DNA of 63,882 nucleotides, filler included, from Reticulomyxa filosa (Eukaryota > Protista > Foraminifera): the NCBI GenBank assembly GCA_000512085.1. It is 18 parts of 18 records of this genome, joined end to end, with 100 filler letters (N's around TTAATTAATTAA, not from the genome) between each part and the next. Parts side by side here need not be neighbours in the genome. Positions count along the whole stretch, not along the records: positions 48,516 to 51,047 come from ASPP01021773.1; positions 51,148 to 52,280 come from ASPP01027437.1; positions 52,381 to 61,173 come from ASPP01045660.1; positions 61,274 to 62,782 come from ASPP01004453.1; positions 62,883 to 63,882 come from ASPP01042864.1; 13 more parts are not named here. The stretch is one strand, 5' to 3'. Shown piece after piece: positions 3,019-63,179 of this stretch (position 1 is the stretch's first letter; each line of letters opens with the position of its first letter). The position numbers and the translations under genes were made by a program. Below the pieces are notes generated by a model. That model ran no database searches. It worked only from the letters and a program-made list of their open reading frames with translations, and had not been told where the DNA came from.

Positions 3019-3672
3019 ATGGCAGAAAATCCAGCAAAAACTACATCTCACACATTGCGCTTTTCAATGGATCCATTTGCATTTCGCAGTTTTATTTACA
3101 AAGACAACCCATATTTGGATAAAGCTTTTATTGACTACGACAGAGCTAAATTCACCGACAAAATTAATGAGTATTATAGCGTCGAAAAACTACCTTTGCA
3201 TGATGGATACGCTCCTTTTTGCAAGCACTTATTTGTGCCAAATTTTGTTGGAGAAAGTTTGAAAGATACAATGCTTGCAATAACAGATGAGAATAAACAC
3301 TTATTGAAAAGTGAGTATGTAAGCCGTCGCAAAGAGGAATTACCCGTGTTAACGCGATGGTTTGACAGCAAAGACTTACAAAAACACAATATAAAAATAC
3401 CTGTCGCCAAAGTCGTAGACATCATCTTGTACAGTCGTGAACAAGTGTGCAAAGAAAATGCGTCAATGGGAATCAAAGACGCAGTATGCGAGGGGGATTA
3501 TGCCATTATTAGTGCCAAACCACAGTCGAAAAATGGAGAAATTCCAATGGAACCAATCACCATGATGAGAAATGTGCTACCACTAGAAGAAGGTGGGAGT
3601 GGGGTAAAATTAGACAGAGAAAAGTATTTGCAAAGTGTTGAGTTTTGGCAAGGACATGCACGAGTGCAATAA
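3019..3672 (+). CDS. DUF3228 family protein (217 aa, single exon)
   Basis: Motifs DGYAPFCKHLFVPNF, ELPVLTRWF, DIILYSREQ and PMEPITMMRN..EEGGSGV are recognised as DUF3228. The ORF is intact from ATG to TAA. Confidence 0.9.
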   Translation: MAENPAKTTSHTLRFSMDPFAFRSFIYKDNPYLDKAFIDYDRAKFTDKINEYYSVEKLPLHDGYAPFCKHLFVPNFVGESLKDTMLAITDENKHLLKSEYVSRRKEELPVLTRWFDSKDLQKHNIKIPVAKVVDIILYSREQVCKENASMGIKDAVCEGDYAIISAKPQSKNGEIPMEPITMMRNVLPLEEGGSGVKLDREKYLQSVEFWQGHARVQ

Positions 3673-4364: not shown

Positions 4365-4370
<6 letters not shown>

Positions 4371-5441
4371 TTGAAGGATAACATAACTAGGTAATGCTGT
4401 TCCTTGAGTGATCCATTGAATGATATCCGAAGAGATGGTGGTACCTGCCTTTCCCTTTTCACTATTTGCTTCTCCAAACATTCCCAAAGCAACTTGTGCA
4501 TCACTGAGTACATGTCCACGATAAGTTAGATTTCTCCATGAAATGCGACTATATCCACTGTCTAAAGACTCACGGCCAATGTCAAAAATTGAAAACATGT
4601 TAACAACATCGCCATAAGGGCCGACATTAATGAATCCATTGGTGTCTTTGAATGCACCAAATTCAAGTACTTTGATATTGAGATCATGAATTGTGACATT
4701 TTCGATTGTCGCTTTTTGCGACCTGCTTTTTGCAGCTCCAAACCAATTGATTGCAACTCCTTTCGAATTCAGCAAAATTCCATAAATGGCCGATCCATCT
4801 GGAAGACCATGTTTATTTACAAATAAGGGCAGTGCGCTTTTAAACAATTCATGATACACATCCTCTTTATCAATGTCAATGTTGTCATTTCGAGTGAAAT
4901 CATCAATTGCAATGTTTCCAGAAAACAGTTTTTCACATACAGCATCCATGGTCAGTTCCAAGTCATCGACGATATCTTCGACACTTTTTGTTTCTTGACG
5001 ATTGGCAAAATGAACAAGTTGATCTCCATGGCTGTCTCTCAAATAACGAAAATTGAGCAATCCAAATCGTGCGTTGCTCCAATACGCAGTGACAGGGACA
5101 TTGACTGCCGATGGACCAATTTCCACATTACGAATGATTACATTCGAAAAATGATTCATTTGGATTCCACCAACTTCAAATTCATAAATGTGCAATTCTG
5201 ACAAGGTCACATTCGTTGCACCGTTGCTATGAATGCCATGATGACTACTCCATCCAAGATGTCCATTATGTATCCATATGTTTGATACTCCCGATTGAGG
5301 ACTGAGAAAAGGACCAAAGTGTGCAGGTCCTTGACCCTGAATAAATGGAGCACTTCCAATTTCAATGTTTGCGTAAAATCGTTGTTGCACTCGAAATTCC
5401 ACTGACATTTCAATTTCTTTTCCATTTAAATCAATTTCCAC
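4365..5441 (-). CDS. Right-handed parallel beta-helix (pectin-lyase-like) protein, internal exon, truncated by contig ends
   Basis: 358-codon ORF with beta-helix-like segments IDLNG, NIWIHNGHLG, HGIHSNGATNVTLSELHI, GIQMNHFSNVIIRNVEI and IENVTIHDL, flanked by intron-like polyT and (TA)n. Confidence 0.65.
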
Positions 5442-6448
5442 CTTTTTTTTTTTTTTNNNNNNNNNNNNNNNNNNNNNNNNNNNNNNNNNNNNNNNNNNNN
5501 TTAATTAATTAANNNNNNNNNNNNNNNNNNNNNNNNNNNNNNNNNNNNNNNNNNNNAACTTTGATAAATGTAATCGATTAATTCAAAATAAATATGTTTT
5601 GATAGGGATGTTAGAAAACTCGTTGTCTAAAATCTGTAATATTATTTTAATACAAAAGTGCTCAAAACAACAAAAAACATCATCAAAAATTGGAAAAAGT
5701 ATAGATGTGATGCATACTATCAACAAATAGGAAGAAATAAATGTATTAATGTGTTAATGAAGCCTTTATTAGTCTGGTTGAAGAATTTTGCGTGTGAACA
5801 AGTAAAAATATGTTGTAATCTTCCATTATTTGATATTGACCATGCGCTTTTTGTTTGTAATATATTTATATATAATGAATTAGTAGAAAAGGTATGCAAT
5901 TTTTAAAATTGTTATCAAAAATCAAACTATTCCTACAATTTGAAACAATGGATAAAGCCCTCCATATTCACCTTATGTAGATGATTTTCTCAATGAAGAA
6001 ACAAAATTTTTAAAAATATAAAAGTCGATAGTTTCTTACTTTCAAAAATTTGAATGTTTCATTCATTTTTAAAATTTGGAAAAAAGTTAGCAGTCGTGTT
6101 TTTTTCATTTCATGAAATTTTCCACAAAATACATTAAATTTTTTTTTGCATAAGTTACAGCCGATTTACTTTACTATTAGCTTTAAATTACACATTTCGT
6201 GTTAGTCTTTTCGGTTGTGGTTTCGGCGGTTTGATCTGCCATATTAGATTGTGATGAGACTAAAAGTTTGCTTCGAAATAATTAATTTTGTATGAAAATT
6301 AGAGTTTCCAAAAAATTAAGTTTTGTTAATGTAATAATAAAAAGAAAACCTTTTATGCATATCAGAAGATGATGTAGATTATTTTTACTTATAAAACCTT
6401 AATGTCTATAGATATTTAAAAAAATAAAAATAAAGAAAACTTAATTAA

Positions 6449-40403: not shown

Positions 40404-43400
40404 ATGTCAGTTTCAAAAGTGCTTGCAATCTATACCCCTGATGGCGGCAAACCGATCAAAAAAAGGTTGAGAAGAGTAGTTCAAAGTTACTCCCAAAAAG
40501 ATTTAGATGATGTGTATGACAGCGTCAGAAGTAAATTCTCAGAATGTTTTTCCAATTCGAATTTTGTAATTGAAATTAAAGGCGAAACAATATTGCCCAG
40601 AGATACACAAAAGTTTGGAGATTCAGTGAAAGGACTAAAAGAACTGGAGATTGTGATTAAAGTTAACTAAGTTTTTTTTTTGCATCAATATTTTTTTCTC
40701 ACTTAAAAAAATCACAAAAAAAAAATAAACAGAAAATGGAGATACAAAAAAAAACAACTCCAAAATTGTAGTGAAGAATACTGTAACCAAACGAGAAATA
40801 GAACAAACAATAATCGACGAAAAAGAGGGTGAGGCAGATATCGATTGGGAAAAAGTGTATAATGACTTGTTAAAAAATATTAACGACGAATTTAAAGTAT
40901 TGAAATTCTTATTACAAAATAAAGACGAAATTCATGTGGAAGGAGCCGATGATTTAAAACAAGAGTGGGAAGAAATGAATGACAGCGGAGACAGCACTTT
41001 GAAATTATTTCTTTCATATGAGGTAATTACCCTTTTTATTTAAAAAAGGAAATAAAAATATCTATATATATATAGTGCATACATGACATAAAGGAAACGA
41101 AAGAAAAAAAATTTAATGTAACAAATGGTATTTCATTGCTATTTGAATTCACTCCAAAGCGTGTAAATGACTCAAATGAAGCAGTGATGAAAGATACGTG
41201 GAAAAAAAATTGGAATGGATTACGAGGCCGAGTGTTTGAACATTTGCAATTGCAAAACAATGAAAAACTTTTTCTGTTATCGAGAATGGATGAAAGAGAT
41301 GACATAATCGAAGATGCTGACGAATTAAGTGATTACTTTAACGAATTATTGAATGATGATAATTCAGAAGCCTTTCAACTTATTGTTGTTCGTCCGTTTT
41401 TTTAAATTTGAGGAGAAAACAAACAAACAAACAAAAAAGGTTCATGCATGTGGAAAATAGATTTGTTTTATATTTGAATACAATGGACATTATGTGAGCT
41501 GGATCCCCTCTGATTCACCACTGTCCACAGAAATTGAAATATATGATTGGCGTAACGCATTTAAAGAGATGAAACAATTTGTATCGAAACAATTCCAACT
41601 CGAAACTGAAGATTTAACATTTCAAAATGCACAAGATGAAAGCGACATAATCGATAATGAACGAGATATAAAATATATCTGGGAAGAAATGTTGAACCAA
41701 GATTGTTTGGGTATATTTCGAATTGTTATCAAAAACTTGGATTCGGACTCTGATTCAGATTCGAGTTTGAATGAGTCAATAAAAAAGTCGAATGCAAAAG
41801 TGAAAAAAAAGAAAAGTTTGGAAGAAGAAATGAAATATGAGAACAAAGGAAATAACAATGAACAGAGGTGTGAAGCGAGTAAAAAACCAAGTGTTGGAAT
41901 CACAGAAAAAATAACAAAAGTGCAGCAATCTCAAAACTCAGAGTCAGTGCAAAATGTGGACAGCAACAAAACAGTGAAGTCGTCAATACAAATCATGACC
42001 GATATTGGAAATAAATTGTCACAATTGAATACCAATAACAAAGAAAATTGCAAGGGTTTTATGAACATAGTGGTTGACACATTATTACATATCAAACCTG
42101 ACGAAGATCGTGATATACTATACTCAACTTGGGGATTCATTCTCAAAGAGTTGGAAAATAATACCGACGGAAAAGAGAGTATTGAGGTGGTGAGAGAATT
42201 TTTGGGTTTACTGGACTTTACATTAACTAAAAATGCAAAAGATTATTTGATCACAGGACAGCCAAATATAGATATAATCAAATTTGTCAAACAAAATTTC
42301 GACGTTTTAGAAGGTGGTGTAATTATTGAAGACAATGGAAATTCACTAGAGCAGTGTCTGCATGGATTAGAAATTGAAATTCCAAAAAATGACAACGAAG
42401 TAAAACATCATAAAAATGGCATTTACGATAAGCATCATATTATATTCACTTTGCAAGAAATCAAACTCGAAGATCAAGATCTGGCATTAGTAAATAAATG
42501 CATATTGCAACCCGAATATATGAGTCGATTTATCAATTATTTTGTTTTCAATTCGTGTAGAGACGACGCTAAAATTATTGATTTTCATCGATTGGAAAAC
42601 ATTCAAATAATTCCAATCAGTTTTTTTGGTAGTGAAATTGAAGTTGTGGAGTTGCTAATGAGATTTGGGATTTTATCAACAGCATTGAAAACCAAAATGT
42701 TGGCAGAGAAAAATTGTTTGCCACCGGGTATTCACGCGTTGCTACCATTGGAACAACTCGTCTCGTTGCCTTCTATCTATGTTGTACTCTTTTATTGGCC
42801 TGTAAAAAATGCCTTTGCCAAAGACAATATCAAACGCTCGAATATTTCATGTTTATTTTCAAGAGTACTTCAAGAGGTATCCACCACATTATGCATTCCT
42901 ATCACCAAACAAGATCTGACTGACTTTGGAACTGTTGAAGAAATTAAACAAGAGCCAGTGAGAAGTGGAGTCATTTTTGATTTTCGAATTAAAGAAGATA
43001 AGGCCAATTCAGTTTCTATTTCCAATCAACTAATCGATAATATTAATCTGAAAATGGTGAAATCTTCTATTTATTCCAATTTGAACGCAGAGTCGTTAGA
43101 TAAACACCCAGAAAATCTATTTGTGCTGGGAGGAACAGATACATTTGGGTATTCTCTTTCATTCAAGTGTGGAAGTCGAACTGAAATGTGTCAACATAAC
43201 ACAAACTTCCAAAGCAAGAAAGAACTATACACCTTTCTTCAACAAACAAGCTCTTCTTATTGCATCTCATATCAACAAAATTTATGTTTTGAAGGTAAGA
43301 TTGAACTTGCCTCTGCTTTGAATGAAGATATTGTCAGAGTTTACAAGGATTCTCAACATACCATTCAGCTTCAGTATGAAGAGGATGAAAAAAATATTAC

Positions 43401-46400
43401 AACTAAAGCAGATGACCAACTAGCACAAAATCAAGAGCTCGTGAAAAAGACATTTTTTCTTATTTATTTGGATAAGCTAGAGTCTGTGTTTGTATATATG
43501 TGTTTGAGACATTACATATAAAGTGTTTTAAATTATATGAGTATATTTTGTAGCAAAGAGAACAAAAAACAAAACAAGCCCTTTTATTTGCTGTTTTAGT
43601 TACAACCACAAAGAATTTTCTCATAAAGAAGTCCAGAAAATAGCTTTATTGCTTCGTGAAAGTTTTGGTTTTTTGTTCTTTTTATCTGTTTTGAAAATTT
43701 ATTGAATTGCAAATGGCAATTGAAAAGGCATCCCTTGTTTTTTAATTTGCTTCATTGGATAGACGTCAAAGATTTGACAACTGATCAGCATTGTTCAATT
43801 GATATCGCCTTGCAAAATAAACAGGAAATTTCAGATGTCAACGTTGGATACGCAGAAAAGTCTGCATATTATCTGAAGAATTTACCAGCTGATATGGAAC
43901 GCATACTTAAAAATTACCAAAGTAAAAAAAAAGAAAAAGCAGGAAAAGAAGGGGGAAACTGGATTATTGCCGGGATCAAACAGATATTAAGCGGCTCAGA
44001 TAAAAAAGTCCTCTCGACATAAATAGTAAGATCGATACGCATGACAGAACGAATCAAAATAGCACAGAAAAAAATGATGAAAAAACAACTGATGACGTAA
44101 AAACAATTAACAACACAGAAACAACTAATGATATTGTCGCAGTTCCGATCGAGGTGCTTGAAGAAATAGATTGGACTCTTGAGTTGGGGCTATTACAGAG
44201 GTGGTACGCAAAATACCAACATTATTATAACGAGTATTCTAAAAATAAAAAGATCTGCTTGGATCGATATAAAATTATAGAAAACATTCAAAAAGACGTG
44301 AAACAAAAATTCGACAAAGATAAAGGGCATGCAAAAAAAGAATTTGAGAAGAATTTTTCAAAGTTTTTGGATGAAAAAAAGGGTTCCTCAACGTTGAAAA
44401 TGAAAATATCAGGGATAACTGTGGAGGAAAAAGCTAATTATGAAACCTTCAAGTTGGCGTATTACTTAGAGACGGAATTGCCACCCTCCAATGAATTAAA
44501 ATTCGTATCATTTGCGCAAACAAACGAGAATGTAGACAGTCGGTTTTATGAGAACATGGCGTATGAAATTCAACAGGATCAACATCTTCTTTGTCATGCA
44601 TTACTCAAAAATAAGGAGATGATGCTGATTATACGTACTACATTTCATGATAGCCAATGTTCTACCAAAGTTATAATGAGCAAACAAAAGATTCTTTCAA
44701 GTAACACAAAGCCAGTGACAAAATTTGGTAAAACAGTGGATTTTGTTGCATTCAATGGTAGAGATGAAACTCTGGCAGTTTATGCAGAAGACAGTATAGC
44801 TTTTTTCTGCTTTCAAAACAATTACGCCACGTTGAGACAACAACAGAGCCCAAGAATTAATTTGACACAATTTTCATGGTACGAAAAGACCAAAGTTCAA
44901 AATATTTTGTTTGAGGACAATACAAAGCAACTATTAGTCATTGATAAGAACAACTGGGTTCGATTTTTCGATTTACTCAACAATGGAATTGTAATGCGGG
45001 GAAAAGAGTTCCAAATCACAGATAAAAACAAAGAGCATATTGACATCCAGCATTTTTTGCTAACTCCGGAAGGAGGTTATTTGTTGGCATTTTCTCAAGA
45101 AATGGAAGAAGTACAGGCAGAACAAATAGCAAATATTTTAATACCTCAAGGTGAAACACTAGTTGATGGGGAGGAGGACACCAAAGAAATTGAAGCCACA
45201 ACTGCGACCAGTGAAGAGCCAGGAGAACAGAAACAAGAATCAATACAAACAGAGATTGATAAAAAAGTGAAAGGAGAAAAAAGAAAACCAACTGGAAAAA
45301 TTGTAATGGATTGTTGGCTATTGGCAAAGAAAGAAAAGATTGTAAGCCTAATTCTTCCCGATTCGATGACTATTGATACAATTGATATGAAGCAAATCCA
45401 AATCAAACAAAACAAAGACAAAAAAAGCTTTTTAGTTGGGACCAACAAGTTTCTTCAATTATGCATGCTTGAATTGGTGATTGAAGTTGCGCAAGCTCAT
45501 TTACATTCTTCCGTGCAAAAAATGGATAAGCAAGATCAAGAGCATTGCATTCGAAAAGAAACCAAACTGGATTATTTGGAATATCATTTTGAAAAATTTG
45601 GAAGTCGACCAGAATTCCATGATTTGGGACAAGATGGAAAACTGACATTTCATACCACGTTATTCATGGATGAGGCTCAATGCAAAACAACGGAAGAAAA
45701 AAAAAAATTGGAGTGCTTGTGCTCTCAAATTCCAAGCAATGTTACAAACATCATTCAATCTTCGTCTAAAAAAGATTTCACTTATTTAAATTGGGAATGT
45801 TCATTGGCCTGGATGTCCAAATCAAAAGAATTACTATTGTCTCATGTCATCGATGAAGTCACCGATAAAATTCCTCACATTAAATTAAGCGATTTTGTGA
45901 AATTGTTGATTATACAAGTACCTATACAAATTGCAAGAGGCTCCAATAATTCCTTTATGTTAATGTATAATGGAGAAGATAACCAACGAGAGTATATCAA
46001 TACCCGAAGTGTATTTCAATTGAGAAAGGAAATTCGATTTGGAGCATATGATGCATTAATCAATTCATGGGAAAAAGACATTAAAGTGGTTACATCAATG
46101 GGGAAACAATCCACTGGAAAATCTTACAAGTTCTTTTTTTTTTAAGTTACAAACGCAATATCATCAATTTTTGATTTGAATGTATTTTTCATAGATTGAA
46201 TCATCTGTTTGGAACCAAGTTTGATATTAGTGGCGGTCGTTGCACTGACGGAACATGGCTGTCAGTCCGAATTGTGAAAGATATTTTGTACGTGTTATTG
46301 GACTTTGAAGGTCTGGGATCGTTTGAAAGAACTCAACAAGAGGATGTCTTACTCAGTGTATTCAATGCAGCCATGTCCAATTGCACCATTTTTAAATGTG

Positions 46401-48379
46401 AAAATCGATTTGATCAAGACGTAGGAGGAATGTTCCAGAAATTTCAAAAAGGAGTGGATTTTATTAAAGGATCAGAAAAATGTTTTCAAGGGAGATTATT
46501 GTTGGTCATTAAAGATATTATTAAATCTGGAGAACAACAAGCTATTGAAGATTTTGTGAGACATATCAGGGATCTTTGTCATGAAAGTAAAGTCCAAACT
46601 GATGGTGAGACAATGGAATCGAATTCATTTTTGACAAAAATGTACAAAGGTTCATTGCGAATTGAAGCATATCCACCTCTCGCGAATGAAGGATTTTTCC
46701 GAAAGTTAGCTTTGTTTCGCAAAGATGTAGACGACATACCCGCAATGCATCGTGGTGGTCAGCAATTTTTGTCCCATATGAAGTTGATTATGAGCAAATT
46801 AAGCGTACAAGATTGGGGATCGCTCTCTGGTGAAATGGCAAAAATGCGAGTCGATGAATTAAAAGACTACATCGATGCGGCTATCAAAGCAGGAACATGC
46901 ACAATTTCAGAAAGTCAAGAGGGTGGAGCCATATTTCGAGTAGCTGAAGATAATCACTTGATAATATTGGATGGATCGAAACCAGTTTTGATTGAAAATG
47001 AAGTTGCCTTGAAGAAGGCAATTGAAAAAGCAGCCGAAAGAAATGCAGATATAATTCAAATACTCGAAAAGGAAAAATTGGAAGAAAAACTGCTAGCAGC
47101 ACTGGGCAATGTAAATGATGGAGGATTGATATTAGGATCTATTCCCTCACAAAAGTATTTATGGGAGAAATTTGAGTCAATGGTAATGAAAAGAGATCAC
47201 GACAACTTTGGAGTGGGTGTGTTTGTCTTTCAGTTATGGCTGGACACGATTCACGTGAGAAGAGAAATGCGAGTATTGCAATGGATTGAAGGCAACACAT
47301 GCAATTTTAAATCGAAAGATGAACAGGATGTAATTAATAGTTTCTTGCGAGAGTGCCAAGTGAAATTGCGACAATTGAGAGAGCCAATGGTTATTTGCAA
47401 ACAAAAATGTAAGCAATGCAATTACCCATGTTTATTGCATAAAGGGCATGAAGAAGATAAAAAATATCTCCAGCACGATTGTTGGAATGAAAATAATAGC
47501 CATCAATGTGTTTACCTTTGCTACTATTGTCAAAATGATAAAAAAGACGAAGCAAAAGATGCTATTCCTTGTGGATATCCTTGCGGACATGAAGGAAAGC
47601 ACGATTGTCAAGTTCGCAACCATTGTTGTGGCCAACCATGCAGCTTAGCTCATTTGGATCATTGTCAACAACATTGTGCTTTGGAATCGGGACATGATTC
47701 ATCTATAGATCACATGTGCGTAGCAAAGATACACTATTGCAGTCAACCATGTTCATTACCAGGCTGCAAAATGAAATGTGTGGAGGATCATATCGTTTCA
47801 CATGACAGACACTGGTGTGGTGAAAAGCGCTGTCCTCATAAATGTCAGGTCCAATGTCGAACGAAAACAGATACAATCGAGCTCTGTGGAGCTCAATGTC
47901 ATTCCGAAGATCATTTCCATCATCTCAAAATTGAAAGCGATGAAATCGGTGATGAGGGACATACATGTCATTCAGATCATTTGTGTCCGGAAAAGTGTCA
48001 CGAGCAGGGTATTTGTGAAATCATCACTGAACGGAAATTTGAAGCACGTGATTATGAAGGACAGAGAGGCACCTTCAAATACGACGCCGTGGTTGAAGTC
48101 AATGCCAAACGAAAGTACTGTGTGGTCCCAATTCCGAAATTTCACTTTCGACATTCAATAAATACAAAAGATCACATTTGCTACACTCAGCATGTATGTG
48201 ATTACAATTGCAATTGCAAACATGTTGCAAGGGATCTTAGTCATATTTGCGATGATACATGTGGATGTACTCACATTGGCAAAAAACACAGTTGCGATGT
48301 GAAATGTCCATCATGCGGATATTTTTGTGATAGACCATATGGACATACTGAAGTTAATTTTTTTAAAAAACTACACACA

Positions 48380-48415
<36 letters not shown>
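40404..48415 (+). CDS. Giant (>2,300 aa) GB1/RHD3-type (GBP/VLIG-related) P-loop GTPase with N-terminal PB1-like repeats, a beta-propeller-like region and Cys/His-rich repeats; 3' truncated
   Basis: G1 MGKQSTGKS (intron 46130-46194 joins SYK|LNHLFGTKF), G2 GRCTDGTW, G3 LLDFEGLGSFER and G4-like VIKD, followed by many CxxxC..GH..HxC repeats at 47395-48350. One apparent -1 shift at A6 44002-44007. Confidence 0.88.
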
Positions 48416-50798: not shown

Positions 50799-52484
50799 AA
50801 ATTTTCTTCAACTTTTCTAGTCCTCGTGATTAAATTCATCGTAAAAAAAGAAATAAACTATTGGCCTGCGAAATTATTATTTTTAATCCTTTCAAAGAAA
50901 GGCAAGTGTAAAAAATAATACACTCTATGACAAGAATTTGTCTAGTTACATGAGTTTACAGTAGAAAAAATTTGTCCACTCGTGTCTAAGTTTTTTTATT
51001 ATAAAAAAAATTCTTGGTAGGTTTTATGCAATTAATTCTTCCAACAANNNNNNNNNNNNNNNNNNNNNNNNNNNNNNNNNNNNNNNNNNNNTTAATTAAT
51101 TAANNNNNNNNNNNNNNNNNNNNNNNNNNNNNNNNNNNNNNNNNNNNCATAAAAAGATAATGTGCTACTGTTCAACTCTTTGTTATAAATTCTTACGATG
51201 GAAATATTATCTTCATCTATAAAAAAAATCAATGATACATTTTCTTTTTCATTACAAAATATGGCGCATGAACGTTGTTTCCAATATTGCTTCAGTTGGA
51301 TAGATTAATTAAAGAGGAAGTCAACTCAATCATTCTATTACTACAGTAACTCACTTATGAGTACAAAAACGAAAAAATGTTCATTCTATGCATATTGAAA
51401 GAGTATCAACTAATAAATGTTATAGTCAATTAGAACCTGTATAGAATGTATGTTTTATGCATGAAATAAGTTGAACTCATTCTCTTTTTTATCAAATAAA
51501 AAACTGACCAAAAAAGACAAAACCAAAAAGGAAAGTTTTAGTTTATGCGGCGCCACGATGTTCTTGAAGGTGCCACATTATTTAAATTTTTCTTTTTCGG
51601 TTTTCCTTTTTTGGTCAATTTTTTAAAACTCTTTGGTGATGCTTTTGTTGGTATTAAATAATTTAATTTTAACTCATCATTGTTGCATTTGGATCAATTT
51701 TATTTAAAAAAGTGCTGATCATTTTGTTGGTATTTTTAACATTGGAGGAAATTATTTTTGTGATTTGTGTATGATACATTGGAATTTGTGTTTACCGTGG
51801 ATATGTGTTTGATTATTTCTTCCTTGGAGAATAATTTTATGTATGACAAACTTCAAATATTCAGTATTAAAAAGGCTGTAGACTTTTTTTGTCGTTTTAA
51901 TATTCCTACTTGAAAATATCTTTTTTTTTTGTACCGTTTCATTTGTTGTTTTGTGTTTTCTTTTTTTATTCTTTGTGATACCATTGGCTGCTACTGTTTA
52001 GAAGTGGAATTCAATCCATTACATTTAAAAAATATTAATGAAAGCTCAACAAATCCAATGATTATGCAATGGCTGGTATCAATGAAAACATATTAGAAAC
52101 CAATCATTAACGTAGCAGGCAAACAAAAAAAATGAAAAGAAACACTTGAATTGACATGCACAAATTTAATTCAATTTGTTGTTTACTGCTTATTTCAATT
52201 TCATGAAAACAAAAACTTTTTATGACTAATCACAAAAAATTGTCCTAGTTTTTGATACAAAAATTTTAACTTTAAATATCNNNNNNNNNNNNNNNNNNNN
52301 NNNNNNNNNNNNNNNNNNNNNNNNTTAATTAATTAANNNNNNNNNNNNNNNNNNNNNNNNNNNNNNNNNNNNNNNNNNNNGATATCGTTTTAGGCGTTCA
52401 GTTTTCTTTGCAACCTACTGTACACATAACATTAAGCTATTAGATTTAAAGCTAAAAAACACAAAGAACCAAGTTTCTTGAAGA

Positions 52485-52730
52485 CAAGTATTAGTGGAAA
52501 TTTCTGCCAAGACTGCTCACAATATTGAACAAGTTTCGTCTTACAATTATTATTGTTATTGTTGATTGATCTATTATAAATGAAATAAATACAATAAAAA
52601 AGCATTTGTCAAAAACATATTGTAGCATTTAATAATGTATCAAATGGACAGTACAAAAACCAAAGTGTGAATTTCTTAAACTGGCCTACAAGCGGCAGCA
52701 AAGACAAAACCTACAAATGAATATTGTTAA
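52485..52730 (+). pseudogene. Ras-superfamily small GTPase C-terminal remnant
   Basis: EISAKTAHNIEQ (G5 SAK motif), an intron-like GT..AG, then AFV and a tail K*ILL resembling a mutated CAAX box. Confidence 0.5.
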
Positions 52731-52776
52731 GGCTGTGTGTTTTTTTGGTCTGATACTTATTGGCATATATTTACAA

Positions 52777-55700
52777 TCATTGTGTTATGTCATTTAAAAC
52801 AATTTTGATTAAAGATTCAATGTTTCTGTCTGCATCACCTTTAACATTTCCATTTTCGATTGCTAAAAGTAGTTTGTCACAATCATATGTTGCTTTCCTA
52901 CGAATCACAGTATTGCAATCACTTCCAGTCACAACAATTTTGTTATTATCAACAGCATTTTTAGATGTTTCCATACGCCTTAACAAAAGATTTGGAAGAG
53001 AAAGCAAATTATATTTTTGCGCAATTGTCAAATCACGTGCCAAAGTTTCAATTATCTTTGGATTAGCAAAAAATGTTGTCAAAACATTGTTTTTTGATCG
53101 CTGTGTTCTCTTATAAATTGTTTCTGTTATACTCCCGGTAATATCAAATTCCGGCAATCCAGCTGTAGAAATTGAATCATCGCGAATTGTGCATACACTA
53201 TGTAATATCAAAACCACTGTTTCATAATACTCTTTCAATGTTGCTTTTTCTTGGATTATTTGCATATCTTGTTTTTTCTCTTCATATTCTTTCTCTTCAG
53301 CTGGTAGTAATTGTTCAAATTCCACTTTTTTTTCTTCATGCATATCTTGTATGTTCCCACGAGAATTTCGTGCAAAGTTTTCAAGAATGACAATTTCAGG
53401 GCATTTCCAAATATCACTTATTGTCGTTATATCCCGAATTTCAGATTTTCTACCATGTAAAGAATCCAATGATTCCTGTCCAAGATCATTTTCAGCATTG
53501 GAAGTGATCACTCCATTTTCGGTAGCCACTACTATATTTTGGTTCATCAACTTCAGAGCCTCTGCTGCTTTGCTGCGAACCTCCTTGTTTTCATCTTTCA
53601 AAGCAATAGCCAACTGACCCAATACATGTTCGGTAGCTGCAGTTGGTCCCATTGAGCCGAATATCTCAGCTGCATTTCTACGAATACTCCAGTTTTCATC
53701 TTTCAAAGCAGTGACAAGTTCATTCAGCACATGTTCCGTCGCCGCGGCAGTTCCCATGGCAGTCAATATCTCCGCCACATCACGACAAGCACTCCAATCT
53801 TCACTTTCAAAACGAAAATCAGTGCATTCAACATAGACTCCGTAGCTGCGGCCACTCCAAATGATTCCACTACCTTTAATGCAAGAGATAGAAGATGCCT
53901 ATCTTCTGACGGTGCTTCACTATTCAAGACACTAGCCAATCGATCCAATACAAATTCGGTGGGCGGTTTTTCAAGAGAGGCCAATATCATTGCGGCAATC
54001 ATAAAAACCTCATTGTTTTGATCGTGCAAGACATTGGTCAATTGACTCACCACATGTTCTGTTGCTGCAGCAGGTCCGAAGCTATGAAGCGTTTTGACTA
54101 CTTGTTTTCGAACGCTGACTTGCTTATCTTTGAGAGCAGCTGTTAACTGGTGTAATACCTGTTCGGTGATTGCAGCTGAGCCCAAGAAACTCAAAGTGAT
54201 TGCGGCATTTTTACGGACCTTGCGATTTGCATTACTCAAAGCCACAGCTAGATTATTGTTGACATATTCAATGGCCTTAGTGGACTGGATCAAGCATAAT
54301 GTCTCGACTGCCTGCTTTCGGAGACTCCAATCTTCGTCATTCAAAATGACTGCAGTCAGCTCCTTCAATACAGACTCTGTATCTGCAGTCACTCCAAAGT
54401 TGCCCAACACTTTGACTGCCTCTTGACGAACACTATTTTCTTTGTCTTTCAAAGCGATCGCCAATTCCTTCAACACTGGCTCCACATCAGCTTCTCGTCC
54501 CAACAGACCCAATACTTCAATTGCATTCCTACGAGCACGCCAATCCTTGTCTTTCATTGCAGTTAGGAGTGCGTCGGACACACTCTTTGTCCCGGCCTGT
54601 CCCGTCGACTTCAGAGCCTTGGCTGCGCCACTCCGAACATCCCAATCTTCATCTTTCAGAGCATTGATCAACGTATCTACCACACTCTTTTGTGTCGCCG
54701 CTGCTGGTCCCATCAAACCCAATGTCTTTGCCGCGAGTGCACAAATGTGTTTACTTTCGTCTTGCAGCATAACTTGCAATTGATCCAGCGCTAGCTCCGA
54801 GATAGCAGAGGGTCCCAATGCTCCGAGTGCCTTCACTGCCTCCATACGAATGTCTTCATTGCTATCTTTCAAAACAAGAGCCAGTCGCTTCAACGCTTCG
54901 TTGGTGACGGCCGTAGGCTTGACCTGACCTATCGCTCGCACTGCTTTGATAAAGATGGTGGTGTCTTTATCTTCCAAAGCAACCTTCAATTGATTGAGCA
55001 GTACCTGCGTATGATCCTTGTCAATACCATTGATCTGCATCAAGCATTGCACAATATTTTCTGGCTCTACTTTTTCAAAGATCGTAGCCACTTGTGTATC
55101 AAAGCGCTCTAAAAAATGGAGTAACTTGTCTTTGTATTCTTGCACATGCGTTTGGTTCGACACCTGAGTGTGTTCAAATTGATGTTCAAGTCGCGTAAAC
55201 AAGTCAACTTGTGGGGGATGATAGCGAAGGAACAATGCCTGCGGACAACATCGAATAATTGTGGGAAAAGTGGTATCTGCAAAGATCACTTGTTTGAGTT
55301 GAGATTGACCCTTTGGCAACAATAACACTACCAAATCTGTCAATCCGACGGAGTTGAGCATTGCACATCCTTGAATGTCCAATACAGATAACATACTGCT
55401 GCCCGTTGAAATGGAGACAATGGACGAACATCCTCCCAGCTGCAATGACTCCAACACAGGAGCCTTCAACTTCAATTTGGACAAGTAAGTGGCATTGATC
55501 ATCTTCCATTGTCTCAAGCACGGCATTGCAATGGATATTTCCACATTCGTCAATTTGCTGCAATGATTGCCCTCGAATCGCACCATCTTAGGTGCTTGAA
55601 AGCCTGTCAATGTGCGAATGCCTGATTCATCCACAATCAACTCGTGCAATGAAAAACACATCCAAAATGACTTCCCTTGCAATCGGGAACAACGTCTTGC

Positions 55701-58700
55701 AATCAACGTTTGCAATGTCTGACATTGTTTTGTAATCGCATTCAAGTCGCTGTCGTCCATCATCGTGTCACTCAAATCCAACCAACGCAAATTCATCATC
55801 CCGGAAAAGAAGTGCGTCATTTTGGCAGCCAACTCCATTTTTTCCACACTCCAAATGTTGAAATTAAAGCCCCGCAGAGACAGCTCTTCAAAGGGATGCA
55901 ATTGCACAATGTGTGCCAATGTCAGCTGCTGCTCATCCGACAGCTTATTCCAATGAAAAGGAGCAAATCCACGCTCCGGATCGCCTCTCAATATTGCGGA
56001 TTGGTCTTCTAATGAAAGCAATCTTTCAAATGCTTTGAAATTGCCTGATGCCACTTCGTCACAGATTTTCTCCAATTGCTGGCATTGATAACTCAGTTGA
56101 TCAAGCTCTGCCAATGCCTTGGCCGGTGTTAAGTCTTCCAAATCCCAATATCCTGTTTCCGGAAGAATGTCATTGATATGGGTGGAGATCTTTGCTCGAG
56201 TCAATGTGCGCAATGCACGAGTATTGGATGCCATCACTCCAAACTTGTTCAATTGATACCTTCCCAATTGAGCCAATCTTTCAATGGGGTCTTTATATTT
56301 TTGTAATGCGTCGCTGTATGCAATGCCTGCCTTCGGATGGAGTTGAATCAGACATTGCAATCCCGTCACATCCGGATGCAGTTTCAATAAAGTACGGAGC
56401 TTCGACCATCGACTATACATTGCTACGGCATCTCCTTTTTTCAAAGGAATGGGGATTGTGCAGCTGTTGCTTGCATCGTTGTGATGCCAACGGTGGATTA
56501 TTTCAGTAGGGAACATTTTTGAGTACATTTCATTTTGTGATTGGGTATCTCGGAAAATCGACTCCATCATTTGTCTTGAATCCAATGTCAGAAATCGCTC
56601 TCTTGCAATTGGATTGATTTGCTGATGCATGCAATCCAGACAAAACAGAATCGTCTTGATTTGCAATTGCAGCTGCTTGGTGTTCTTATCGGGGAGCCAA
56701 TCAGGAAACAAAGCATGGTCATGATCAATACTTACCAATGTATCCTTTTTATTGTCGATACATTTGACAATATAATTGGTTGGCAAGCCATCTTCTGGAT
56801 TGGTTAACAATGCAACGAATAACAGCTCTGTGTAATATTGGTGATCCAATTTGTTCAATCTCTCCGATTCATTTTCAATCACTTCTTGCAACGTAGGACC
56901 ATGAACAGCCTCCGAACAAAGGACTGGAATGGAGTCACCATCCGCATATCTCAAACATACCAATTCACTATGATACGTTCCATGACCTATTATTCGATGA
57001 TGACATTGCTCCATCAAATAACTCATCCCTGGCATTTCAGGCCATGCCTTTGCATAAATTATCGGTGGTGTATTTGTGTCCAATGCTATTGGAATTACAT
57101 CCCTTTGTCCACCGGATATCCGATTCTGCTTAAATTTCCCATTTTCATCCAATAACTGGGCAGCCACGCTAGCTTGCAATGGCTTGCATCCACCGATCAA
57201 TGGACTATTGAATGTGGGCTCGTTTGCTCTTGGGGCCCGATCTTCCACCAATTTTTGCAAAGTTTCTTTCCATTTTTTCTTTTCTTCTTTCCAAAGAGTT
57301 GTTTCGCCACATTTGTCCGGCATACGATGCAATGCAGTCAAAACATTACTTAAAAAATCCCGGGTTCCTTCATCTGCTTTTTTTGGTGCAGCATTAGAAT
57401 TTGCCGAAATGCAACACGAACAGCAATGCCATCCAATAATTGGTAGATATTTTGGTATACTTTCAATTCTCGATGCTTCAACAGCAGCACATGAATAAGT
57501 CGTGACAAGCATGACTTTTTGTTTTCCACCTCAATGCTGAGTTCCTTTTCACATTTTTTTAGCAAGGACTCTCGTTGAGTACGGACTTGCTCAAACGCAG
57601 GTCTTAGCAATGCAAATAATTGACATTGAAAATAAGGGGTAGTAGATTGAAGCGTACCTTGACGTTGTTCCTTTCGATAGCATTCCACAATTGTTTCATC
57701 AGCATCTTTGTCATGTGAATCCCTTTGATTTTGCCATTGTTCTATTCTTGTATTCCAATCTGCATTAGAAGTTTGAATTTCTTGTGTGCAGTTGTGCAGC
57801 CAATTGCTTCGCGATTGAGAGTGATCGGTCACATGACTTAGATTGATGTTATGCATTTCCAGTTTGGTCACAAATGTATTCCTTTCTTCGGTGACACGTA
57901 GCAAGTCTCTGCACACTTCCAACAACTCCAAGGACAGTCGAGCATGGACACATTTGGCAGCCCAATCACGAACCAAAGACTGGTTCCAAATATTCCATTG
58001 GTTCATGTTGCCAGCAGTGAGGATATAGCGCCGATTCTGGGCTTGCACTTCCAAAGTCAGACCTTCAATGTCATGAGGATCCAAACAGAAGCGAGCTTGA
58101 TAGCAGTTGATGGCATCATCCATTTCATTGAATTGAGCATGCACAAGCATTTGGCCTAATGAGTCGATCTGATGAATCTGCGTGCGCTTTAAAAACGAGG
58201 GATTGCCTTCCTCGGACCATCGTTTTGCGCTTTGATATAATGACCACAGAATGGCATACACTTGTTTCAGTTGAGTCTGCTCTTCGGCAGTAAGACGATA
58301 AGGCTGGACTTCAGACAAAGGGACTTGTGTATATGGTTGATATAGCCATTCATGAGCCGCTTGATAATGCATTTGAGTTGTAATTCGCCATTGCAATGCC
58401 CGACAAATCAAGTCATGTAATAATGTCAGTGTTTTATCACAAAAGGCCCTTCTCCTCCTCGCCAGCTCATTCACTTGATCGACAATATGACCAATCCCAA
58501 GTCCGTAATACAGACTCAAGGCCAAGATCATTTGTTGAGATAATCGATACAATTGCTTCTTCACACAAACACCAATCTGATCTGTTTCAACTCCTTGTGC
58601 CACTTGTGACATTGGATTCAGACTCTCTATTATCTGATCCACAATTTCCAGTGATATTTTCTCTCGCAGTCGATTTGCTTTTAACCATCCGCCCAAATTC

Positions 58701-60376
58701 TTGTTCAACAATTGTTCCAAGCATGATTGATACGTGGCAAATAGATCATCCGATCCGACTATCTTTCGATAACTTAACAAGATTTGACGATCGAGCAATT
58801 CCCAATTTCTGCTTGTCTGAATACCTGCCAGATTCGTTGGCGTGTGAAGCAGCAAATCTGAACTGCGATGTGGCATGTAAAAGTAATCTGCGTGCAATCC
58901 AGTGCGGATAATTTGTGGCTGTTCATTGCAATTATTATTGAATAAGCCTAGCAGCTCTTCAGGTGTCTCTCCCAATCCAATCAACACCAATTCAAAAATT
59001 GCACTTGCATTTGTAAAGTATTTGCGAATGTCGGGACTGTCTGTTGCAATCAAACAACCACACTCAATGTCGGAATAGGGCGTTGCTTCTTCTCGTCCCA
59101 ATGACCCCAATGCCAACAATGCATATTCACAAGGAGGTTGCGGCAATCGATCCAAAACAAACTCCCAAAGCATCTTCAAAATTCCACACAATCCTTCCGT
59201 CATTTGCTTTGTAATTCTGAGTGGAGAAGAAGAAGGAGGAGAAGGAGGAGAATTGCTTGTGTTTGTCACACATCGTCGACGTAATTGCACCAGACGGCTA
59301 TTCCAACAGTGATACAACTCATATGATATTGGCGTGGAGCTTGGCAGGACTTGTGCCAGAATTCGAATTTGCTGACTCGAAGATTGCTTTTGCCATAATA
59401 ATGCATTTGGCAAATTGAAATGCTTGGCTGCCATTGAGCAAGCAGCTGTAGCATAACCCATTGCCAAACGATACAATGTTCGCTTCCTTTCAATTTCATC
59501 TGTCCAAAATATATATGACAATGTTACATCGCTAAGTGCCAATAAACATGCAATTGCAAGCTGATGCACTGTGCGCATTGATTCGATCACTAATGCTTTA
59601 TATTCCGGATGGCATTTCGCAAATTGATTAGAATGATACTCGATCACTTCTTTTTCAGACGATTTCATTTTTGGAAAAGACAATCGAATGGCTTGAGCGT
59701 GGTCATATCTTGCTTGCAATAAGATTTGGTAGGTTGCATCGAGATTGGCAGGCCAATGGATTGATGGCTGCAAATAACAAATCACTCCAATTTTTTCACG
59801 CTTTAATGCCTCGTGTTCGGGACGATCACCATTCACAGTAATCCGTGATATATCCGCTTGATGGTCCAAAAGCCATTTAATTGCTCCCTTTTGTCCATTG
59901 CGAGCTGCTTTATGCAATGCTGTGTAATCGTAATTATTCACTTGATTCACATTCAACTCGGGACATGTATCCAATATCCATTGCAGTAATTCATGTTGTC
60001 CGGTTACTGCCACTGCATGAAATATTGTGCTTCCTTCTTCATTTCTTTCACTTATCATTCGTTTGATTGACTCCAAAGCTACATGCTCGTTCAACCATTT
60101 TATTGCTTCTTTCATATTTTTATTTTGTTGCATTCCATCTGCCCAATAAAACAAAATATTTTGTCTCATTCCATCACGTGCTTGTAATACTGATCCATCA
60201 TAGTCTAATATTTTTGTGGCACAGTTCCATCTTCCTTGTCGCAACGAATGCAGAAATAATCTTTGTAAACATGCTTTTGGCTCTTTTTGGTTCTTAACCC
60301 AATCCAACAGTTTATCCGGCTTGTCTTCATGTATCCAGTCCTCTCCTGTCTTTGGTAAACTTGCCCCAGTTGTCAT
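52777..60376 (-). CDS. Intronless multidomain protein of about 2,530 aa: ankyrin - DUF294/GlnD-type nucleotidyltransferase - PI3/4K/HipA-like kinase - LRR - HEAT (PBS-lyase-like); two apparent -1 frameshifts
   Basis: ORFs 57350-60580, 53763-57512 and 52777-53778 overlap with continuous domain logic. Motifs are ANK TALHKAARNG, NTase LGSLGREEATPYSDIE, kinase YAKAWPEMPG / NPEDGLPTNY / SIDHDH, LRR LRWLDLSDT, and HEAT LKDEDWDVRSGAAKAL repeated more than 10 times. Confidence 0.88.
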
Positions 60377-63179
60377 CTTGCAAAATGACAAAATTATTTT
60401 GGAGATTATTAACAGCAGAACAAAAATTTTTGTTTGATTGACAACTTCCTTTTTTTTTTTGTAGGTTTGCGGTTGTTCACAACAAAACTCCTTTAACTGA
60501 ATTTCACTTCGAGAAGGTGATAACAACACAAAAAAAAGTGAAGGAATAATTAGACCGATAGTTAAGCAGCAGTTGATCAATTCAATCCAATAGGAACCTT
60601 CTGATGTGGTACAAGATTGACTCTGTCTTCATTTCGATCAACTACATGTCCGAAATTATTTAAAAATTCGACATTGTAAAAACAAGACGTAAAAAATAAA
60701 ATTACAATTCATTGCACTAAATTATCATTAGATGATAAAAAAGACCACCCAAAACCGTTTAATAATGTGCAAAAGTAACTAATCATATTCCTTTGTTTTA
60801 AATAATTTTAGTCTTATTCGTTTAAAAATTATCTTACTTGAAAATGTTCCTTCTTTTAGACTGTAACTCAGGAACATCTCAAATGATTTGAAACGCGAAT
60901 TGATCAAATGCATTTCCTTTTTTGCATCTTAAACACAAGTACAATTTGTTTTTTTTGAACTGGGAATCAAGATTGTAACAAATTCATTCAAAGATAGTTA
61001 TTTCATTTCATGAGTTGTCAGACAATAATACTTATTAAATTTTAACGAAACAGCAATCAAAACAAGTTTCGTTCATTTTTCCCAAGAAATAGAAAAACGA
61101 TTTGTGTGTTTACATGTATCTTATCAACCCTAGCGTACTTCTATCTGATGAAATATCTACTTTAAAAAAACAGNNNNNNNNNNNNNNNNNNNNNNNNNNN
61201 NNNNNNNNNNNNNNNNNTTAATTAATTAANNNNNNNNNNNNNNNNNNNNNNNNNNNNNNNNNNNNNNNNNNNNGCGTGATTATCTTTGCCGAGCTAACAC
61301 AAGGCACGTGACTCTTACAGTGATGGAGTCAGAAATACAAACCAGCTCTATCTCTCTATCTCTTCACCAACTATCAATGCTCAGTGTCATTCGCAAGCCC
61401 ATCATTCATCTAATCAGTAGCACACTCACGATTCAGAATTCAAAATTGCGGATGTGCGCACTCACATCATCAGTTTTGACACGAGTAGTTAGCGCGATTT
61501 TTATAACAACCTTGTTGACTCTTTTTTTTTTTATCCTGATATTTTCGTAGTTGCACTTTCAGTTCCCTGTTCCTGCGACGATGCTCGTACTTCCTTGTTT
61601 CGCTTTGACCACATGCATTCAACAATTTTCTCGCACGGATGTCCTTTCTCCAGACTGCCCATTAAGACGTTCAGTATTAGCCACTACTTTTTGAAGATGT
61701 TGAGTCGTTGTTTTATGAGCTGTAGCTGCATGCACAGTGTCTCCAGGTCGATGCTCCCCACTTTTGTGATTCCGTGGATTTGGTTAAATAATCTCTTATT
61801 TTGCCAGCTTTTTTAGGCTCAAAAGAAATACTGGAAGTAGCGCTTTTTATTTTAATCACTGACTTGACCATTTTCTTGATTCTCATTTTCATATACTCTG
61901 TTGCTTGCTTTTGCTCAATGCCAGAAGCATTAGTGGATGGGTCAGAAATGGAATACGCAAAATTACGAACAGCATAATAGTATCAATAAAATGTTTATCG
62001 ATATTTTTTTTTTTTTTTACTAATGGTCTGTGCTGTTTGTAATTGTGATTGCAAGTGATCAGGCTCCACTTTAATTATTATGGATTATGTGAAGCATGTA
62101 TTTTTTTGATAGGGTTTGCCCGATCGAAAAGTCAAGAGATGAATAAATTTCTAAACAGAGGCAAGTAATCGTCTCCAATAGTAGAATCCGCATCATGAAT
62201 AGCGACAATCAACATTTCACGATAACTCAATATGCACTTTTCAACGCCAAGTAGAGTGACTGCTGATTCCATGGACATATCCAATTCTCTTACTTTGAGT
62301 AATTCCAGACTTTTTATTCAAAAGTTCCTTGAATGAAGGAGATTTGGTAGGCAATTGTTGTGTTGTTTTTAGAATTTGGAATTTTCCATCGGGCAATGTT
62401 CCAAAATCTGTTAAATACAAGTTGTGTCAACAAGCAATTGAAATGCTTCAGACAAAGGAATAAAAAAAAAATGGAAAAAAAAAAGCAATGACAAACATGT
62501 TATTAATGTCTTGGAGGATAGAATTGACCAAAATATTGAATATGCGCTTATCTCCAAAATTAGATGTTGCTCCAACAAATTTGTGCTTGAAATCGACCTT
62601 TGCAATTCTTGTGGATGTTCATTGTACTTTGGAACTTACTAATTATTTTGTTTGTATGATTTTTTTTTTCCAAACAAAACAGGTATATAGTATTCTTTTT
62701 TTTTAAATATACAAGTGTGCAGATATAAAATGGTGTGATCTATAGTTTGTTTGTAGTCTGGAATGAAAATTCACACCATTTANNNNNNNNNNNNNNNNNN
62801 NNNNNNNNNNNNNNNNNNNNNNNNNNTTAATTAATTAANNNNNNNNNNNNNNNNNNNNNNNNNNNNNNNNNNNNNNNNNNNNATTCGGCGTTATCTTGGA
62901 TTGTTGCTGGTGTTTATTCCTGGAATCTGGCATATTAATACCATAATTAATTCCATTTCCAACTCCATATGCATTATTTCCAATGCCACCATGCATACTG
63001 GCATTTAATGTTTTACTATTGTCAGACATGCTCGGAAGTGTAGTTAGCATGTCTGGACTTGCAGTAGAGCCTATTGGGATAAAGACACCTTGCCTCGACC
63101 CTTCACAAGCCTTGTTATCAGCGATTGGGTTTCGGTGATGTTCATTAGGAAATAAGCCTTGGTGGAGTGATTCAATTCA

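What the first reader, a model, noticed from the sequence alone, without database searches (positions are those of the whole stretch)
52381..61173. Candidate horizontal transfer from an endosymbiotic bacterium into the host chromosome
Seen: the 7.6-kb gene has no introns and is visibly GC-richer than neighbouring host genes, most of which carry introns every few hundred bases. It sits about 50 bp from a eukaryotic Ras-family pseudogene remnant and has AT-rich, host-like upstream DNA on the same contig. Its last about 250 codons look more AT-rich, suggesting a chimeric end. Inference: integrated bacterial (or giant-virus) DNA rather than a contaminant contig.
Basis: inference. Interest (0 to 1): 0.7.

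Follow-up and report, generated by a model that had tools for sequence, protein, structure and literature searches.

The report
Bacterial effector gene domesticated by foraminifer
A single-celled foraminifer carries several copies of a giant gene whose closest outside relatives belong to bacteria, so it likely took the gene long ago from a bacterium that lives inside host cells; the gene now has the host's codon habits and is predicted to encode two enzymes of the kinds such bacteria use to rewire host membranes.

Summary
The window is 18 short contigs joined by artificial linkers; the finding is one 8.8-kb contig. It holds a 7.6-kb intron-free gene, broken into three frames by two frameshifts: ankyrin repeats, DUF294 nucleotidyltransferase, atypical kinase, LRR, about 14 HEAT repeats, AT-rich tail. 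At least six diverged copies (40-76% identical) are named Reticulomyxa filosa proteins. Outside them, the same ANK-NTase-kinase-LRR chain occurs in bacteria (30-39%), one with a Dot/Icm secretion locus; searches of viral contigs found none. Both trees put the foraminiferan copies on a long stem among these bacteria; a clade with animal DUF294 proteins is rejected. Codon usage is host-like (8 of 8 blocks), so this is an old, ameliorated, duplicated transfer, not a fresh insert. Predicted folds match DrrA/GlnE adenylyltransferases and PI4K-II/LepB-type lipid kinases, with catalytic residues intact and conserved among paralogs. The GC contrast is modest, the 'chimeric' tail is family-wide, and the Ras remnant is weak. 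No real reads were available, so junctions, expression and the two breaks are untested. Direction of transfer is inferred, not proven.

The parts
52381..61173 (.). One assembly contig (8793 bp, GC 0.40) between two artificial 100-base linkers (52281-52380, 61174-61273)
52777..60376 (-). Whole gene, about 2530 codons, in three frames: ANK - helical - DUF294 NTase - helical linker - atypical kinase - LRR - HEAT array - tail
59834..60109 (-). Ankyrin repeats (ORF1 residues about 90-181)
   Evidence: Pfam Ank_4 E 1.6e-15
58187..59218 (-). DUF294 / GlnE-DrrA-type nucleotidyltransferase with its C-terminal helical bundle; motif G424-S-L...D436-x-E438 and D497 (ORF1 numbering)
   Evidence: Pfam DUF294 39.5 bits over cut-off 21; model pLDDT 82; Foldseek; motif table
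57377..58186 (-). Helical (TPR-like) linker, 44-56% identical in five paralogs
57352..57384 (-). Frameshift 1 (ORF1/ORF2), in a stretch holding runs of 6 and 7 identical bases; five paralogs read through in one frame
55971..57371 (-). Atypical kinase of PI4K-II/LepB-like type; Lys108, Asp194/Asn199, Asp216-His-Asp218 (domain numbering) intact
55161..55880 (-). F-box-protein-type leucine-rich repeats
   Evidence: Pfam LRR E 1.1e-4; profile hits FBXL2/SKP2 LRRs
53533..55000 (-). HEAT (PBS-lyase-like) array, about 14 units counted by eye; absent from the bacterial homologs examined
   Evidence: Pfam HEAT_2 E 2e-50; translation
53795..53820 (-). Frameshift 2 (ORF2/ORF3) inside a HEAT unit, among short runs of 3-4 bases
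52780..53532 (-). AT-rich C-terminal module (GC3 0.215), 35-38% identical in P0006 and P0162; no Pfam family
60377..61173 (.). AT-rich non-coding upstream DNA with poly-A/T runs (both flanks 2.5 runs of 8+ per kb; rest of window 2.1; bacterial intergenic 0.6; only 3 runs in the flanks)
52488..52535 (+). Ras/Rab G5-like motif, 16 codons; possible remnant, not established

Best explanation
This is one of at least six copies of a host-codon-adapted foraminiferan gene that was likely acquired long ago from an intracellular, Dot/Icm-type bacterium and is predicted to encode a protein adenylyltransferase joined to a phosphoinositide-type kinase. Shown: architecture, paralogs, bacterial homologs with the same ANK-NTase-kinase-LRR order, host codon signature, intact catalytic motifs, stronger conservation of catalytic sites among paralogs. 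Inferred: in the donor the protein was a secreted effector; after transfer the C-terminal LRR tail was replaced by a HEAT array and an AT-rich tail, and the gene duplicated, with some copies kept under purifying selection and others decaying (birth and death). Most likely mechanism (inferred, about 0.45): the ANK, LRR and HEAT repeats bind a target or membrane, the GlnE/DrrA-fold domain transfers AMP from ATP to a protein (a small GTPase is the model case), and the kinase phosphorylates phosphoinositides, so the host would use it to control phagosome or symbiont-vacuole traffic. Whether this particular copy is intact is open: two frameshifts, no in-frame stops.
For: Kinase: R. filosa paralogs 53-76%, then 35-39% to P0008, P0009, P0010. 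P0008, P0056 and L001 repeat ANK-DUF294-kinase-LRR. L001 lies in a gammaproteobacterial MAG with icmL E 7.5e-55 and icmK E 6.8e-92 in one locus; L003 sits beside mraY-murF-murE-ftsI; L005 beside a MerR-type regulator and an IS6 fragment. Kinase tree: foram 100/100, with groups A and B 99/100, outgroups include Neochlamydia and a Pseudomonadota MAG. NTase trees: foram 100, stem 1.2-1.6; foram plus animal clade rejected, p-AU 0.004. Codon usage r 0.96 with host against 0.76-0.85 with five bacterial homologs; Leu TTG 51% (host 41, bacteria 12-21), Gly GGA 49% (host 53, bacteria 9-28); 8 of 8 blocks fit the host model; 8 of 8 bacterial sets fit a bacterial model; 10 of 12 host ORFs fit host. Sites invariant in bacteria are better kept among paralogs: kinase 91/70, 87/67, 95/73%, but 62/58% in kinase-dead P0007; NTase significant in 5 of 6 paralogs. 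Folds: DrrA ATase 6YX5 E 5e-8, TM 0.65, then GlnE; PI4KIIalpha best TM 0.49; LepB_N clusters at 0.95.
Against: No raw reads or RNA runs: the only holders are synthetic runs that copy the public gene model. No genome was held, so paralog flanks and introns were not seen. R. filosa is reported to have been sequenced together with a Midichloriaceae symbiont (PMC10847448, passages), whose codon usage was not available as a control; a bacterium can hold several copies too (four loci L004-L007 in one metagenome assembly). A tree with groups A+B excluding the foram clade is not rejected (p-AU 0.26), so nesting inside bacteria rests on deeper, long-branched outgroups, most of them unlabelled. The NTase sister group is unresolved (84/88). 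Kinase fold matches are weak (E about 5e-4; canonical protein kinases rank equally by E-value) and Pfam LepB_N is hit by 0 of 9 proteins. No substrate evidence.
Confidence: 0.68

Rival explanations
1. The contig and its paralogs come from a co-sequenced bacterial symbiont, not the host genome.
For: No introns; bacterial architecture; a Rickettsiales symbiont was sequenced with R. filosa (PMC10847448 passages); a bacterium-like source holds four copies; Ras remnant weak.
Against: Host codon signature in 8 of 8 blocks with working controls; 1.2 kb of gene-free AT-rich flanks with poly-A/T runs; paralogs span wide amino-acid composition (GARP/FYMINK 0.32-1.06) with low-complexity inserts; HEAT-plus-tail module found only in R. 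filosa proteins.
Confidence: 0.08
2. The gene is an old eukaryotic (rhizarian) invention or inheritance that intracellular bacteria picked up; transfer ran host to bacterium.
For: Foram clade outside A+B not rejected; long stem; ANK and LRR are eukaryote-type repeats; the DUF294 NTase also occurs in Branchiostoma.
Against: No other named eukaryote with the fusion; foram plus animal clade rejected; deeper kinase branches include Neochlamydia and a Pseudomonadota MAG; DUF294-TPR families are expanded in Chlamydiae (PMC4209131 passage).
Confidence: 0.12
3. Origin as in the best explanation, but this copy is a young pseudogene and the family is mostly decaying repeat cargo without present function.
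For: Two frameshifts; most paralog models are split, partial or have gaps in conserved stretches; P0007 kinase, P0017 and P0031 NTase motifs are degenerate.
Against: No in-frame stop in about 2500 codons; break 1 lies in homopolymer runs, a typical sequencing-error site (general knowledge); all catalytic residues intact; purifying signal among paralogs.
Confidence: 0.3
4. Endogenised giant-virus gene, or a chimeric assembly of bacterial and host DNA.
For: Long intronless repeat-rich gene; GC falls from 0.47 to 0.32 near 53400.
Against: No relative in IMG/VR contigs for kinase or NTase (word-based scans, limited reach); only generic kinase folds in BFVD; the HEAT-to-tail join recurs in P0006 and P0162 on other contigs.
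Confidence: 0.04

Closest known systems
Uncharacterised bacterial ANK-DUF294-kinase-LRR proteins (P0008, P0009, P0056, P0010, L001, L004-L007)
   Same: Same domain order over about 1700 residues; 30-39% identity in the kinase, 26-27% in the NTase; shared motifs.
   Different: Bacterial ones end in LRR_6 repeats or another C-terminal domain; the foram family ends in a HEAT array and its own tail, has host codon usage and lacks a DUF294_C Pfam hit.
Legionella DrrA/SidM AMPylation domain and E. coli GlnE adenylyltransferase (DNA polymerase beta-like fold)
   Same: Top Foldseek hits; G-S-L then acid pair 12 residues on, plus a third Asp, as G98-S99-L100...D110-x-D112, D150 in DrrA (PMC7815794 passages).
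   Different: 14% identity; second acid is Glu (71 of 77 family rows); no SidM_N, GEF or P4M hit; substrate unknown.
PI4K type II alpha and bacterial phosphoinositide-kinase effectors LepB (PI4K) and Risk1 (PI3K)
   Same: Best TM-score to PI4KIIalpha; feature neighbours include LepB_N clusters; Lys, D-x4-N and D-x-D motifs present; LepB and Risk1 activities from PMC7298712 passages.
   Different: No Pfam PI3_PI4_kinase or LepB_N hit; embedded between an NTase and repeats; protein-kinase activity not excluded.
Neochlamydia NEX2 family (F-box-DUF294-TPR)
   Same: Expanded DUF294 repeat proteins of an amoeba endosymbiont (PMC4209131 passage).
   Different: No F-box/OTU/TPR array here; chlamydial NTases fall in other branches.
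Prokaryote-derived lateral transfers in Rhizaria
   Same: Reported as common, often duplicated, with 69% of R. filosa cases carrying an annotated intron (bioRxiv 10.1101/2023.01.27.525846 passages).
   Different: This copy has no real intron; its three annotated introns are model artefacts. Whether that study lists this family could not be seen (supplements closed).

Membership tests
DUF294 putative nucleotidyltransferase (PF03445) | Pfam score above the curated cut-off | tested here: met
   39.5 bits, cut-off 21
DNA polymerase beta-like protein adenylyltransferases (GlnE/DrrA type) | G-S-x...[DE]-x-[DE] motif plus third acid, on the GlnE-type fold | tested here: met
   G424, S425, D436, E438, D497; predicted fold E 5e-8 to 3e-6
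DNA polymerase beta-like protein adenylyltransferases (GlnE/DrrA type) | Transfers AMP to a protein | not testable with these tools
   needs an assay
DrrA/SidM orthologs | SidM_N, GEF and P4M domains | tested here: not met
   no such Pfam hit at E 0.05; works-like claim only
PI4K-II / LepB-type phosphoinositide kinases | Catalytic Lys, D-x4-N loop and D-x-D/G metal motif | tested here: met
PI4K-II / LepB-type phosphoinositide kinases | Family profile hit (PF00454 or PF18640) | tested here: not met
   0 of 9 proteins at E up to 1; only fold and feature likeness
PI4K-II / LepB-type phosphoinositide kinases | Lipid kinase activity | not testable with these tools
   needs an assay
Bacteria-to-eukaryote horizontal transfer | Nested among bacterial homologs in trees | tested here: inconclusive
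   grouped with bacterial A+B at 99/100; eukaryote clade rejected; exact nesting not required by AU test
Bacteria-to-eukaryote horizontal transfer | Host compositional signature and duplication in the host assembly | tested here: met
Bacteria-to-eukaryote horizontal transfer | Physical linkage to host genes by reads; spliceosomal introns; poly(A) expression | not testable with these tools
   no genome held, no real reads; no intron in this copy
Dot/Icm (T4BSS) effector origin | Homolog-bearing genome encodes T4BSS | tested here: met
   1 of 1 searchable genome has icmL and icmK; dotA not found; five metagenome loci not searchable
Dot/Icm (T4BSS) effector origin | The homolog is translocated | not testable with these tools
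   inferred from architecture only
Ras-family pseudogene (flank) | Significant match to several G motifs | tested here: inconclusive
   only a G5-like motif, 6.5 bits; 2 of 274 background pieces score higher

The most novel reading that the evidence does not exclude
A foraminifer captured a two-enzyme vacuole-hijacking effector (Rab-type AMPylase plus phosphoinositide kinase) from a Legionellales-like parasite, swapped in variable HEAT arrays and expanded it into a family of sensor-enzyme proteins that it now uses to police phagosomes and symbiont vacuoles: a protist innate-defence system built from its parasites' weapon.
Probability: 0.2. Interest if true: 0.78.

Novelty: new variant of a known kind. 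Interest (0 to 1): 0.52.

Why it matters
Effector genes are usually described as moving from protists into Legionellales and Chlamydiae (recalled); here an effector-type gene appears to have been kept and multiplied by a protist. It also flags an undescribed bacterial fusion of a DrrA/GlnE-fold transferase and a PI4K/LepB-like kinase, gives DUF294 a testable function (protein AMPylation), and records a past gammaproteobacterial-type associate different from the Rickettsiales symbiont reported for R. filosa. Practically, it shows that annotated introns in such genes can be artefacts of frameshift repair and should not be used as proof of integration.

Tried and rejected
No genome held for the window. 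Sequencing runs: no RNA holder listed; three synthetic-metagenome runs of one study, two with 0.12 of the words. Their contigs cover 12 of 30 bins, miss both frameshifts, and one skips 53898-54007 exactly as the public gene model P0016 does, so they appear to be made from gene models and were rejected as evidence of splicing or junctions. A control lay on another contig gave no result. The three annotated introns were rejected: one removes 8 residues kept by paralogs, two bypass the frameshifts through wrong frames. Viral contigs: none for kinase (34 candidate stretches) or NTase (7); plasmids: none for the kinase, six generic HEAT hits at 30-38%. PDB sequence search of the kinase: 0. Flanks share no repeat with the rest of the window (best E 0.018). 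Atlas for the tail gave exportin-like eukaryotic clusters at 0.91 with low recognition (1562): lead only. Order-level search around G001 returned only G001, so the donor order is not resolved. VIA-align searches did not complete. Earlier findings: three look-ups, nothing. The R. filosa genome paper cited in PMC10847448 is not held.
Full report
WHAT IS THERE. The window is not a chromosome stretch: 17 identical 100-base linkers split it into 18 contigs, and 52381-61173 is exactly one of them. On its minus strand a gene runs from ATG 60376 to the stop at 52777 in three overlapping frames. Pfam gives ankyrin repeats, DUF294, LRR and HEAT repeats. Between NTase and LRR lies a kinase-like domain without a Pfam hit. 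Paralogs read through both frame changes, so these are frameshifts; the first lies in homopolymer runs. The public model of this gene (P0016, 100% identical) has three small introns; one deletes 8 residues that paralogs keep and two bypass the frameshifts via wrong frames. The only sequencing runs found are synthetic and reproduce that model's third intron, so they are no independent evidence.

THE FAMILY. Three word-based searches and one full HMMER search gave top hits named Reticulomyxa filosa: P0001, P0002+P0003, P0006, P0018+P0007, P0017, P0019, P0031+P0032, P0162. Six sequences overlap at the linker before the kinase (window, P0001, P0003, P0006, P0007, P0017), so there are at least six copies, 40-76% identical. 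The window is therefore taken to be from this foraminifer or a very close one. The AT-rich tail is shared with P0006 and P0162 (35-38%) and begins in P0007: a family feature, not a private chimera.

OUTSIDE RELATIVES. The next kinase hits are P0008, P0009, P0010 (35-39%), then Neochlamydia P0011 (30%) and a Pseudomonadota MAG P0012 (26%). P0008, P0056 and the ORF of L001 have the same ANK-DUF294-kinase-LRR order. Their context is bacterial: L001 is a gammaproteobacterial MAG contig whose genome has an icmM-icmL-icmK-type locus (dotA not found); L003 borders mraY-murF-murE-ftsI; L005 has a MerR-type gene and an IS6 fragment. T4BSS is present in almost all Legionellales and also in Fangia (PMC8896642 passages), so a Legionellales-like donor is likely but not fixed. 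No relatives in viral contigs or plasmids.

TREES. Kinase (23 rows, 459 columns): foram 100/100 on a 0.78 stem, sister to group B at 93/90, with A and B at 99/100; A+B without foram is not rejected (p-AU 0.26). NTase: 80 rows by FastTree and 28 of these 80 by IQ-TREE without mixture: foram 100, long stem, loosely with group B and other NTase-kinase fusions (84/88). Two named Branchiostoma proteins and animal-like P0005 form another clade; joining them to the foram clade is rejected (p-AU 0.004; the tool notes this model rejects true clades a little too often). Most rows carry no taxon label. So vertical eukaryotic inheritance is disfavoured; direction is inferred.

HOST OR CONTAMINANT. Domain GC3 of 0.32-0.51 lies in the range of 16 host ORFs (0.15-0.54); codon-usage correlation is 0.96 with host and 0.76-0.85 with five bacterial homologs. 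GC-neutral traits agree: Leu TTG 51% (host 41%, eight bacterial sets 12-21%), Gly GGA 49% (53%; 9-28%). Eight of eight 300-codon blocks fit the host model best (the last 123 codons not scored); eight of eight bacterial sets fit a bacterial model; ten of twelve host ORFs fit the host. 'Host' here means ORFs on other contigs of the window with eukaryote-type Pfam hits. The Midichloriaceae symbiont reported with R. filosa (PMC10847448 passages) could not be included. The Ras remnant is marginal.

HOW IT LIKELY WORKS. The NTase model (pLDDT 82) matches DrrA/SidM 6YX5 (E 5e-8, TM 0.65) and GlnE. Its G424-S-L...D436-x-E438 and D497 parallel DrrA G98-S99-L100...D110-x-D112 and D150 (PMC7815794 passages). 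The kinase model (pLDDT 76) has its best TM-score with PI4KIIalpha, though E-values are weak and shared with protein kinases; Atlas neighbours are bacterial clusters, including LepB_N at 0.95 (the tool warns its taxa do not show transfer); LepB is a PI4K and Risk1 a PI3K (PMC7298712 passages). Pfam LepB_N itself is not hit. Catalytic residues are intact here, in P0003 and P0006, and lost in P0007. Sites invariant in bacteria are better kept among paralogs in 3 of 4 kinase and 5 of 6 NTase comparisons, and not in kinase-dead P0007: selection kept the enzymes working after duplication, while repeats drifted to 38-55%. Inference: a repeat-targeted AMPylase plus phosphoinositide kinase, first a secreted effector, now a host tool on phagosome or vacuole membranes, evolving by birth and death.

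KNOWN OR NEW. Lateral transfer into Rhizaria is reported as common (bioRxiv 10.1101/2023.01.27.525846, passages; its supplements are closed and may list this family). DUF294 repeat families are known from Neochlamydia (PMC4209131, one passage). I found no paper on this family or fusion in searches for Reticulomyxa with nucleotidyltransferase (1 unrelated listing), with effector terms, with HEAT/PBS lyase (0), DUF294 with AMPylation (0), and (listings only); subscription papers, including the genome paper, were not seen. Domesticated bacterial toxins in animals are a known kind (recalled). Verdict: real, old and duplicated bacterial-type gene in a foraminiferan genome; new variant of a known kind; interest 0.52.

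Noticed in passing
window, 17 places, e.g. 52281-52380: Identical 100-base N/TTAATTAATTAA linkers: the window is a concatenation of 18 unrelated contigs; ORFs that cross them are artefacts.
   Followed up: yes
window 41461-48415 +: Large gene with 2-kb stop-free stretches, weak URGCP-like GTPase hit (E 0.002) and a Cys/His-rich tail; looks like a very large inducible GTPase (name recalled).
   Followed up: no
window 4368-5456 -: Uninterrupted 363-codon ORF with a right-handed beta-helix hit (E 9e-4) filling a 1.1-kb contig; possibly another bacterial-type gene.
   Followed up: no
window 2998-3669 +: DUF3228 gene, E 1e-71, single exon.
   Followed up: no
L007 1-9237: Bacterial homolog with two tandem kinase blocks in a 2564-codon frame, and the ANK/NTase part lying on the opposite strand: rearranged or misassembled; four copies (L004-L007) come from one metagenome assembly.
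   Followed up: partly
L001 5703-11244: Operon of a lysA/FslC-like decarboxylase, a second methionyl-tRNA-ligase-like protein, an amine N-monooxygenase, a short cupin-like ORF and a further ORF next to the homolog: probable small-metabolite cluster.
   Followed up: no
P0082, P0136, P0005: The same DUF294 NTase occurs in Branchiostoma and an animal-like protein in a clade apart from the foram copies, suggesting an independent acquisition by animals.
   Followed up: partly
P0011, P0012, P0013: Neochlamydia and a Pseudomonadota MAG carry two tandem copies of this kinase before LRRs; P0013 (unlabelled, Asn/Ile/Lys-rich) might be another eukaryotic carrier.
   Followed up: no
window 52780-53475 -: The tail's nearest Atlas clusters are eukaryotic exportin-like proteins (0.91, low recognition), a weak hint that the tail is host-derived.
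   Followed up: partly
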